64,000 nucleotides of DNA. Origin: Escherichia coli (lineage in GTDB: Bacteria; Pseudomonadota; Gammaproteobacteria; Enterobacterales; Enterobacteriaceae). Position 1 is the first letter of the stretch; each line of letters begins with the position of its first letter. The DNA lies in assembly GCF_048403405.1 (NCBI RefSeq), contig NZ_CP183129.1, one strand, 5' to 3'. The position numbers were made by a program. Shown in pieces: positions 45,001 to 48,000 of this stretch.

Positions 45001-48000
45001 CAACACCTTCTGGGCATTGAGTGACTCGATGTGTTCAGAAGCGACACCATGGGTCAACGGTGCTTATTTACCGGATCATGCCGCACTGCAAACCTATCGC
45101 GTACTGGCACCAATGGCCTACGCGAAGATCAAAAACATTATCGAACGCAACGTTACCAGTGGCCTGATCTATCTCCCTTCCAGTGCCCGTGACCTGAACA
45201 ATCCGCAGATCGACCAGTATCTGGCGAAGTATGTGCGCGGTTCGAATGGTATGGATCACGTCCAGCGCATCAAGATCCTCAAACTGATGTGGGATGCCAT
45301 TGGCAGCGAGTTTGGTGGTCGTCACGAGCTGTATGAAATCAACTACTCCGGTAGCCAGGATGAGATTCGCCTGCAGTGTCTGCGCCAGGCACAAAGCTCC
45401 GGCAATATGGACAAGATGATGGCGATGGTTGATCGCTGCCTGTCGGAATACGACCAGAACGGCTGGACTGTGCCGCACCTGCACAACAACGACGATATCA
45501 ACATGCTGGATAAGCTGCTGAAATAACGCAGCAGGAGGTTAAGATGCAATTAGATGAACAACGCCTGCGCTTTCGTGACGCGATGGCCAGCCTGTCGGCA
45601 GCGGTAAATATTATCACCACCGAGGGCGACGCCGGACAATGCGGGATTACGGCAACGGCCGTCTGCTCGGTCACGGATACACCACCATCGCTGATGGTGT
45701 GCATTAACGCCAACAGTGCGATGAACCCGGTTTTTCAGGGCAACGGCAAGTTGTGCGTCAACGTCCTCAACCATGAGCAGGAACTGATGGCACGCCACTT
45801 CGCGGGCATGACGGGCATGGCGATGGAAGAGCGTTTTAGCCTCTCATGCTGGCAAAAAGGTCCGCTGGCGCAGCCGGTGCTGAAAGGTTCGCTGGCCAGT
45901 CTTGAAGGTGAGATCCGCGATGTGCAGGCAATTGGCACACATCTGGTGTATCTGGTGGAGATTAAAAACATCATCCTCAGTGCAGAAGGTCACGGACTTA
46001 TCTACTTTAAACGCCGTTTCCATCCGGTGATGCTGGAAATGGAAGCTGCGATTTAAGCTCCAGCCCCTTCACGCATTCGTCGAAGGGGCATTTTTATTGT
46101 GATCTCAATCACATATCCACCCGATGAATAATTCTTGCCCAACCGCTCACCGCCATTCCTGACCGCTTACGTCCCTAAAATAACCACTCAGTTATTTACC
46201 TTACTTTACGCGCGCGTAACTCTGGCAACATCACTGCAGGATAGCGGTCAATTTACCTCCTCAAACGCAACGCAAACCTAGAACGGCTTCGGCCTATGAT
46301 TAACAAATTACTCTATGGATTTTGGTTTGCAGGAAGGCAGCAAGTGAGTGAATCCCCGGGAGCTTACAACAGTAAGTGACAGGGGTGAACGAACGCAGCT
46401 GCCGCACCTGTAAGCCAAAAGACGACGAGTAAAATGCCAGGTTTTACTATGGATACGAAAAAACTATTCAAGCACATACCCTGGGTGATTCTCGGAATCA
46501 TCGGTGCATTCTGCCTCGCGGTAGTTGCATTACGTCGGGGGGAGCACGTCAGCGCCCTGTGGATCGTGGTCGCCTCTGTGTCGGTGTATCTGGTGGCGTA
46601 TCGCTACTACAGTCTGTACATCGCCCAGAAGGTGATGAAACTCGACCCCACGCGCGCGACGCCTGCGGTTATTAACAACGACGGTCTGAACTACGTTCCG
46701 ACCAACCGTTACGTGTTGTTTGGTCACCACTTCGCCGCTATCGCCGGTGCTGGTCCGCTGGTCGGTCCGGTTCTCGCCGCACAGATGGGCTACCTGCCTG
46801 GCACGCTGTGGCTGCTGGCGGGGGTAGTGCTGGCCGGTGCGGTACAGGACTTTATGGTGCTGTTTATCTCCTCTCGCCGTAACGGCGCATCTCTCGGTGA
46901 GATGATCAAAGAAGAGATGGGACCAGTACCGGGGACTATCGCGCTGTTTGGCTGTTTCTTAATCATGATCATCATCCTCGCCGTTCTGGCGCTGATTGTG
47001 GTTAAAGCCCTGGCCGAAAGTCCGTGGGGTGTCTTCACCGTTTGCTCAACCGTACCAATTGCGCTGTTTATGGGTATCTACATGCGCTTTATCCGTCCGG
47101 GGCGTGTGGGTGAAGTCTCTGTCATTGGTATCGTGCTGCTGGTTGCCTCTATCTACTTCGGTGGCGTGATTGCTCACGATCCGTACTGGGGTCCGGCACT
47201 GACCTTTAAAGACACCACCATTACCTTCGCGCTGATTGGCTATGCGTTTGTTTCCGCGCTGCTGCCGGTGTGGCTGATCCTCGCACCACGCGACTATCTG
47301 GCAACCTTCCTGAAAATCGGCGTTATCGTCGGCCTGGCGCTGGGTATCGTGGTGCTGAACCCGGAACTGAAAATGCCTGCGATGACCCAGTACATTGACG
47401 GTACTGGCCCGCTGTGGAAAGGCGCTCTGTTCCCGTTCCTGTTCATCACCATCGCCTGTGGTGCGGTATCTGGCTTCCACGCACTGATCTCTTCCGGTAC
47501 GACGCCGAAACTGCTGGCTAACGAAACCGACGCGCGTTTCATTGGCTACGGCGCAATGCTGATGGAGTCCTTCGTGGCGATTATGGCGCTGGTTGCTGCG
47601 TCCATCATCGAACCGGGTCTTTACTTCGCGATGAACACCCCGCCTGCTGGCCTTGGCATCACCATGCCTAACCTGCATGAAATGGGTGGCGAGAACGCGC
47701 CGATCATCATGGCGCAGCTGAAAGACGTTACCGCACACGCGGCAGCGACCGTCAGCTCCTGGGGCTTCGTGATTTCGCCAGAGCAGATCCTGCAAACCGC
47801 GAAAGACATTGGTGAGCCTTCTGTCCTGAACCGTGCAGGTGGTGCGCCGACGCTGGCGGTAGGTATCGCTCACGTGTTCCACAAAGTGCTGCCGATGGCT
47901 GACATGGGCTTCTGGTATCACTTCGGTATTCTGTTCGAAGCCCTGTTCATCCTGACCGCGCTGGATGCGGGTACTCGTTCTGGCCGCTTTATGCTGCAAG

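What the first reader, a model, noticed from the sequence alone, without database searches (positions are those of the whole stretch)
46142..46169. BtsR-type direct repeats upstream of btsT
ACCGCTCA and ACCGCTTA separated by 12 nt match the LytTR-regulator direct-repeat pattern reported for the yjiY/btsT promoter, now located directly downstream of the hpa cluster terminator.
Basis: partly seen in the sequence, partly recalled or inferred. Interest (0 to 1): 0.25.

Follow-up and report, generated by a model that had tools for sequence, protein, structure and literature searches.

The report
BtsR operator of the btsT promoter

Summary
ACCGCTCA (46142-46149) and ACCGCTTA (46162-46169) lie 12 nt apart, 280-307 nt upstream of btsT (ATG 46449), and no shuffle reproduces the pair.

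The window is ordinary E. coli: tsr-hpa cluster-btsT-yjiX-yjiA.

As I recall the K-12 work, the experimentally defined YehT/BtsR site is ACC[G/A]CT[C/T]A x2 with a 13-bp spacer. In K-12, copy 1 is imperfect (GCCGCTCA).

In 80 of 80 btsT loci from other Enterobacterales species I found the same three-unit array with a 20-21 bp period. The units are conserved while the spacers diverge freely. A perfect CRP site (46098-46113) sits 28 nt upstream of unit 1, and an extended -10 element (TGgCAACAT, 46223-46231) lies downstream. The predicted start site, 46238, agrees with the published reporter numbering -212/+88.

The hpa-btsT adjacency occurs in 2065 of 5426 complete E. coli genomes, so it is common.

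The minor additions are a conserved third unit that is A/G polymorphic in E. coli, and an ERIC repeat inserted in the btsT leader.

The parts
46063..46097 (+). Intrinsic-terminator-like hairpin (46063-46089) plus U-tract that ends the hpaBC operon. It marks the right edge of the hpa island and abuts the CRP site.
   Evidence: dG -18 kcal/mol, z -3.3. hpaC stop at 46056. The simple consensus scan missed it because the stem has a bulge.
46098..46113 (.). CRP-cAMP site TGTGAtctcaaTCACA, both half-sites perfect. Centre at -132.5 relative to the inferred start site.
   Evidence: It is the only match in the window, with 0.10 expected. The half-sites are invariant in all E. coli haplotypes. A related site lies 44 nt (start to start) upstream of unit 1 in 64 of 78 distinct loci. 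btsT is reported to be cAMP/CRP dependent (PMC5431176; PMC7730263).
46142..46149 (+). Repeat unit 1, ACCGCTCA (-96 to -89). It is GCCGCTCA in K-12-like strains.
   Evidence: Exact ACCRCTYA in 54 of 78 distinct Enterobacterales loci.
46162..46169 (+). Repeat unit 2, ACCGCTTA (-76 to -69).
   Evidence: Exact in 68 of 78 loci, the best conserved unit.
46183..46190 (+). It is the downstream half of the published pair.
   Evidence: Identical in K-12. Exact in 57 of 78 loci.
46223..46231 (+). Probable extended -10 element, TGgCAACAT (TG at 46223-46224, hexamer CAACAT at 46226-46231). There is no good -35 element.
   Evidence: cTGGCAagAT is conserved across the loci at a fixed offset from unit 3. No consensus sigma-70 promoter was found, as expected for an activator-dependent promoter. 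This is an inference.
46238..46238 (+). Inferred transcription start (A).
   Evidence: It lies 7 nt after the -10 hexamer. The equivalent K-12 base is 88 nt before the ATG, matching the published reporter 'PbtsT -212/+88' (PMC10653868). Not mapped in this strain.
46311..46429 (+). ERIC/IRU repeat inserted in the btsT 5' leader. The leader is 211 nt here against 88 nt in K-12.
   Evidence: Absent from K-12. It matches the ERIC1R and ERIC2 primer sequences, recalled from memory, with 2 and 3 mismatches. It folds as a long hairpin, z -4.2. Present at this site in 2062 of 5426 genomes.
46449..48599 (+). btsT (yjiY), pyruvate/H+ symporter, 716 aa. This is the regulated gene.
   Evidence: RefSeq annotation of the identical strain TUM14771. 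ORF list.

Best explanation
The repeats are part of the operator of the btsT promoter. That promoter is activated by the LytTR-type response regulator BtsR (YehT) when the kinase BtsS senses external pyruvate, and it is co-activated by cAMP-CRP. The operator is a phased array of three ACCRCTYA units: 46142, 46162 and 46183, with spacers of 12 and 13 nt. The 20-21 bp period, two helical turns, puts all units on one face of the DNA. The array lies between a CRP site (46098-46113) and a weak, extended -10 promoter (46223-46231) that starts transcription near 46238. Units 2+3 are the pair defined experimentally in K-12. Shown here: the sequence anatomy, the orthology to the K-12 site, and the conservation. 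Inferred: BtsR binding in this strain, any role for unit 1, and the start site.
For: The window is 100% identical to E. coli TUM14771, where the downstream gene is annotated btsT. From unit 2 to the start site the window differs from K-12 by two substitutions, 46171 (in the unit 2-3 spacer) and 46236, both outside the units. The K-12 oligo named 'yjiY YehT bs' covers all three units (PMC4847170). All 80 btsT loci from other Enterobacterales species carry a three-unit array scoring 21-24 of 24. Shuffled sequences reach at most 20 and the opposite strand at most 18. Among loci with the same 20/21 spacing, identity to the window is 0.92 in the units and 0.49 in the spacers. At least four E. coli haplotypes differ heavily around unit 1 yet all keep the CCGCTCA core and the CRP half-sites. 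LytTR regulators typically bind two imperfect direct repeats of 8-13 bp about 12 bp apart (PMC4064291). BtsS/BtsR-dependent, pyruvate-induced and CRP-dependent btsT expression is established in E. coli and Salmonella (PMC5431176; PMC9504724; PMC7730263). The inferred start site matches the published -212/+88 numbering.
Against: No binding or expression experiment exists for this promoter haplotype. The non-K-12 E. coli strain tested in the papers I read (UTI89) lacks the hpa island, and that test used the K-12 reporter. I could not read the primary paper, so the published motif and spacer rest on my memory. I also do not know whether a third unit was tested there. Unit 1 is imperfect in K-12, where the system works well, so it cannot be essential. 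The conservation scores come from motif-anchored windows, which inflates them somewhat, although the shuffle and opposite-strand controls are far lower.
Confidence: 0.88

Rival explanations
1. Only units 2+3 (46162-46190) form the BtsR site. Unit 1, and therefore the reader's pair as a pair, is a non-functional relic or a site for something else.
For: As I recall it, the published site is a two-repeat site with a 13-bp spacer. K-12, E. albertii and roughly half of complete E. coli genomes carry GCCGCTCA at unit 1. LytTR regulators usually act on two repeats.
Against: Unit 1 matches at least 6 of 8 positions in every locus. It is exact in 54 of 78, about as good as unit 3 at 57 of 78. Positions just outside it carry almost no information. 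Its CCGCTCA core survives in at least four E. coli haplotypes whose flanks are scrambled. Its spacing to unit 2 is fixed at 20-21 bp.
Confidence: 0.3
2. The repeat pair is a chance similarity with no regulatory meaning.
For: The single 8-mer ACCRCTYA occurs 14 times in the window, so isolated copies are common.
Against: No exact pair appears in 100 shuffles. The position is orthologous to the K-12 site. The array is conserved in 80 of 80 species.
Confidence: 0.01
3. In hpa-carrying strains btsT is driven mainly by read-through from hpaBC, which is co-oriented and only 392 nt upstream. On this reading the repeats matter little here.
For: hpaBC and btsT are on the same strand, whereas in K-12 the neighbouring gene tsr is divergent.
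Against: A stable hairpin with a U-tract follows hpaC. The full CRP, three-unit and -10 module is retained intact, which argues for continued use.
Confidence: 0.03

Closest known systems
YehT/BtsR-binding site of the E. coli K-12 yjiY (btsT) promoter (Kraxenberger et al. 2012, J Bacteriol 194:4272)
   Same: Orthologous DNA. Units 2 and 3 and their 13-nt spacing are identical apart from one spacer base. The CRP site, the -10 element and the downstream gene are the same.
   Different: Unit 1 is a perfect ACCGCTCA here and GCCGCTCA in K-12. The sequence between the CRP site and unit 2 is a different haplotype. The upstream neighbour is the hpaBC terminator instead of divergent tsr. The leader carries an ERIC insertion.
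AgrA sites at the Staphylococcus aureus agr P2/P3 promoters (LytTR direct repeats with 12-13 bp spacers; from my knowledge and the summary in PMC4064291)
   Same: Short imperfect direct repeats with a period of about 20-21 bp, placed just upstream of a weak promoter and bound by a LytTR response regulator.
   Different: The consensus sequence is different. There are two repeats rather than three. There is no CRP co-activator site.
YpdB (PyrR) site in the E. coli yhjX promoter (direct repeat of GGCATTTCAT, sites A and B; PMC4847170)
   Same: It belongs to a paralogous LytS/LytTR pyruvate-sensing system, has a direct-repeat operator, and is bound sequentially and cooperatively.
   Different: The motif is unrelated in sequence, and two sites are described.
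AlgR at the Pseudomonas aeruginosa algD promoter (three sites RB1-RB3; PMC4064291)
   Same: A LytTR regulator that uses three sites at one promoter.
   Different: The AlgR sites are widely dispersed over hundreds of bp. They are not a tight 20-bp phased array.

Membership tests
BtsR (YehT) operator of btsT | Lies in the promoter of btsT/yjiY at the position orthologous to the K-12 site | tested here: met
   Alignments to K-12-like BM28. btsT annotation. The K-12 'yjiY YehT bs' oligo spans the same segment.
BtsR (YehT) operator of btsT | Two direct repeats ACC[G/A]CT[C/T]A separated by 13 bp (motif recalled from the abstract of Kraxenberger 2012) | tested here: met
Met by 46162-46190 (ACCGCTTA-13-ACCACTCA).
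BtsR (YehT) operator of btsT | BtsR binds it, and btsT induction by pyruvate needs BtsS/BtsR | not testable with these tools
   Shown for the K-12 promoter and for Salmonella, but not for this haplotype.
LytTR-type response-regulator binding site (general) | Imperfect direct repeats of 8-13 bp about 12 bp apart | tested here: met
   8-bp units with spacers of 12 and 13 nt. The definition is as summarised in PMC4064291.
LytTR-type response-regulator binding site (general) | Conservation of the repeats but not the spacers among orthologous promoters | tested here: met
   Found in 80 of 80 loci. Identity to the window is 0.92 in the units and 0.49 in the spacers. Shuffle and opposite-strand controls score far lower.
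CRP-cAMP site | TGTGA-N6-TCACA palindrome upstream of a CRP-dependent promoter | tested here: met
   Perfect half-sites at 46098-46113, unique in the window and conserved. CRP dependence of btsT comes from the literature. Its distance of -132.5 is unusually far for direct CRP-polymerase contact.
ERIC / IRU repeat (leader insertion, side finding) | About 125-bp imperfect palindrome matching the ERIC consensus, transcribed and intergenic, with presence or absence varying between strains | tested here: met
   The consensus was taken from the ERIC1R and ERIC2 primer sequences as I remember them. Rfam has no family for it; the only hit is a sub-threshold V_AS5 match.

The most novel reading that the evidence does not exclude
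The BtsR operator is a three-site phased array rather than the two-repeat site of the literature. On this reading the natural A/G polymorphism at the first base of unit 1 (46142), split roughly evenly among E. coli genomes and shuffled by recombination, tunes the threshold or amplitude of pyruvate-induced btsT expression between lineages. The ERIC hairpin in the leader of hpa-carrying strains would add a second, post-transcriptional layer of strain-specific tuning.
Probability: 0.4. Interest if true: 0.3.

Novelty: already known. Interest (0 to 1): 0.12.

Why it matters
It matters little beyond correct annotation. It confirms that strains carrying the hpa island keep the full pyruvate-responsive btsT promoter. 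It gives window coordinates for the operator, the CRP site, the -10 element and the probable start site. The comparative data do suggest a small refinement for people working on BtsS/BtsR or building pyruvate biosensors from PbtsT. A third conserved unit exists, it varies between E. coli lineages, and many strains carry a 120-nt ERIC hairpin in the leader that the K-12 reporter lacks.

Tried and rejected
The primary paper (Kraxenberger 2012, PMC3416263) and Behr 2014 (PMC4010973) are not held. Five text searches for the motif wording found no quotation, so the published motif and spacer are cited from memory.

The sigma-70 and terminator consensus scan found nothing in 45950-46500. I inferred the promoter from cross-species conservation and checked the terminator by folding.

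I considered a sigma-54 reading of TGGCA-N7-TGCA (46223-46238), whose spacing fits. I rejected it because the TGCA half is not conserved; Salmonella has TCCA at the aligned position.

I looked to UTI89 as an experimental test of a non-K-12 haplotype. It lacks the hpa island and was assayed with the K-12 reporter.

Rfam gave only a sub-threshold hit on the ERIC element.

My first btsT coordinates were off by one base and were corrected to ATG 46449.

Full report
**The observation.** The sequence at 46142-46169 reads ACCGCTCA ccgccattcctg ACCGCTTA, exactly as described. The degenerate pair ACCRCTYA-N12-ACCRCTYA occurs once in the window and in none of 100 dinucleotide-preserving shuffles. With two mismatches allowed the expectation is 0.31. 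The single 8-mer is not rare: 14 copies against 6.3 expected.

**Context.** The window is E. coli and is 100% identical to strain TUM14771 over the region. The annotation of that record gives tsr, hpaR, hpaGEDFHI, hpaX, hpaA, hpaB and hpaC (stop at 46056). Next comes btsT (ATG 46449, 716 aa), followed by yjiX, yjiA and a penicillin G acylase gene. A bulged hairpin with a U-tract follows hpaC at 46063-46097 (dG -18 kcal/mol, z -3.3). The arrangement is common: 2065 of 5426 complete E. coli genomes cover hpaC through btsT. K-12-like strains and UTI89 instead have divergent tsr next to btsT.

**Which repeats form the known site.**
- Aligned to a K-12-like strain, the promoter reads GCCGCTCA-12-ACCGCTTA-13-ACCACTCA.
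- The primary paper (Kraxenberger et al. 2012) is not in the held library. As I recall its abstract, YehT binds two direct repeats of ACC[G/A]CT[C/T]A separated by a 13-bp spacer.
- The G/A and C/T alternatives and the 13-bp spacer fit only the ACCGCTTA/ACCACTCA pair, which is window 46162-46190.
- The same laboratory's later SPR oligo 'yjiY YehT bs' spans all three units (PMC4847170). Its YpdB oligos also carry generous flanks, so this does not show that unit 1 is bound.

**Comparative test.**
- I fetched btsT loci from 80 further Enterobacterales species, from Escherichia, Salmonella, Citrobacter and Klebsiella to Kosakonia, Pantoea, Erwinia and Rahnella.
- Every locus with enough upstream sequence has a three-unit array of ACCRCTYA-like 8-mers with periods of 20 or 21 bp: 20/20 in 53, 20/21 in 22, 21/21 in 4 and 21/20 in 1. 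They score 21-24 of 24.
- The best triple in shuffled upstream regions scores 14-20, typically 16. The opposite strand of the real sequences scores 14-18.
- Among 78 distinct sequences, the units are exact in 54 (unit 1), 68 (unit 2) and 57 (unit 3).
- Positions just outside the units carry almost no information.
- For loci with the window's 20/21 spacing, identity to the window is 0.92 within the units and 0.49 in the spacers.
- Unit 1 is thus about as constrained as unit 3. K-12's G at its first position is a one-base departure from the common form.

**Variation within E. coli.** The segment upstream of unit 2 is a mosaic.
- Window type: hpa island upstream, ACCGCTCA, spacer ccgccattc.
- K-12 type: tsr upstream, GCCGCTCA, spacer accgcaaaa.
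- O157:H7 type: a different upstream gene, ACCGCTCA, spacer accgcaaaa.
- Recombinant type: GCCGCTCA with spacer ccgccattc.

All four keep the CCGCTCA core and both CRP half-sites. About 2263 genomes carry the window-type segment and about 2680 the K-12-type.

**The rest of the promoter.**
- TGTGAtctcaaTCACA at 46098-46113 is the only perfect CRP core in the window. A related site lies 44 nt (start to start) upstream of unit 1 in 64 of 78 loci. This fits the reported cAMP/CRP dependence of btsT.
- Downstream of unit 3 the conserved string is gATTTACC..aCTTTACGCGCGCG....cTGGCAagAT. I read TGgCAACAT (46223-46231) as an extended -10 element with no usable -35. This agrees with the consensus scan finding no sigma-70 promoter.
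- That reading places the start at A 46238. The equivalent K-12 base is 88 nt before the ATG, which matches the description of the standard reporter as 'PbtsT -212/+88' (PMC10653868).
- On this numbering the units sit at -96/-89, -76/-69 and -55/-48, and the CRP centre at -132.5.

**Mechanism.** The established steps, for K-12 and Salmonella, are as follows. BtsS binds external pyruvate. BtsS/BtsR are required for btsT induction. CRP is required. CsrA and LeuO modulate expression. LytTR regulators generally bind paired direct repeats about 12 bp apart. My inferences for this window are that BtsR occupies units 2+3 as in K-12, and that unit 1 adds a third, cooperative site on the same DNA face. 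No experiment has used this promoter haplotype.

**Side observations.** The btsT leader here is 211 nt against 88 nt in K-12 because of an ERIC/IRU element at about 46311-46429. The element matches the ERIC primer sequences and folds as a long hairpin with z -4.2. It is present at this site in 2062 genomes, nearly the same number as carry the hpa junction. One Escherichia sp. locus (L004) has the hpa junction but no ERIC.

**Verdict.** This is a real feature and it is correctly attributed to BtsR and btsT, but it is already known and was mis-registered by one unit. The only modest additions are the conserved third unit, its polymorphism in E. coli, and the ERIC insertion in the leader.

Noticed in passing
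window 46311-46429: An ERIC/IRU repeat is inserted in the btsT 5' leader, ending about 20 nt before the start codon. It is absent from K-12-like strains. It is present at this site in 2062 of 5426 complete E. coli genomes, almost the same number as carry the hpa-btsT junction (2065). It could affect mRNA stability, translation or CsrA control.
   Followed up: partly
window 46090-46161; alignment A2: The segment from the CRP site to unit 2 is a recombination mosaic in E. coli, with at least four haplotypes and three different upstream neighbours (hpa island, divergent tsr, and an unrelated hypothetical gene in O157:H7). In each case the variable DNA ends just upstream of the CRP site. This acts as a natural deletion series marking the outer limit of the btsT promoter.
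   Followed up: partly
window 46223-46238: TGGCA-N7-TGCA has the GG/GC spacing of a sigma-54 promoter. The second half is not conserved in Salmonella and other genera, so I read the conserved TGGCAAGAT as an extended -10 instead.
   Followed up: yes
window 46191-46216: The block gATTTACC..aCTTTACGCGCGCG between unit 3 and the -10 element is strongly conserved in Enterobacteriaceae. The CTTTACG part falls in the next 20-bp phase after unit 3. In Pantoea coffeiphila (L074) a true fourth ACCGCTCA unit occupies that phase. Its function is unknown; it may be a -35 substitute, a LeuO site or another factor's site.
   Followed up: no
window 46434-46436: An in-frame ATG lies 15 nt upstream of the annotated btsT start (46449) and is also present in K-12. 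The mechanical ORF call therefore gives 721 aa rather than 716 aa.
   Followed up: no
window 49897-52437 (- strand): A penicillin G acylase gene lies just beyond yjiA, close to the hpa cluster. UTI89 carries mrr-hsdRMS at the corresponding place. This is another variable island in the same neighbourhood.
   Followed up: no
whole window: The 8-mer ACCRCTYA occurs 14 times against 6.3 +/- 2.4 in shuffles. Three copies are the operator. The other 11 are scattered, none is paired at LytTR spacing, and they are probably a composition or codon effect.
   Followed up: partly
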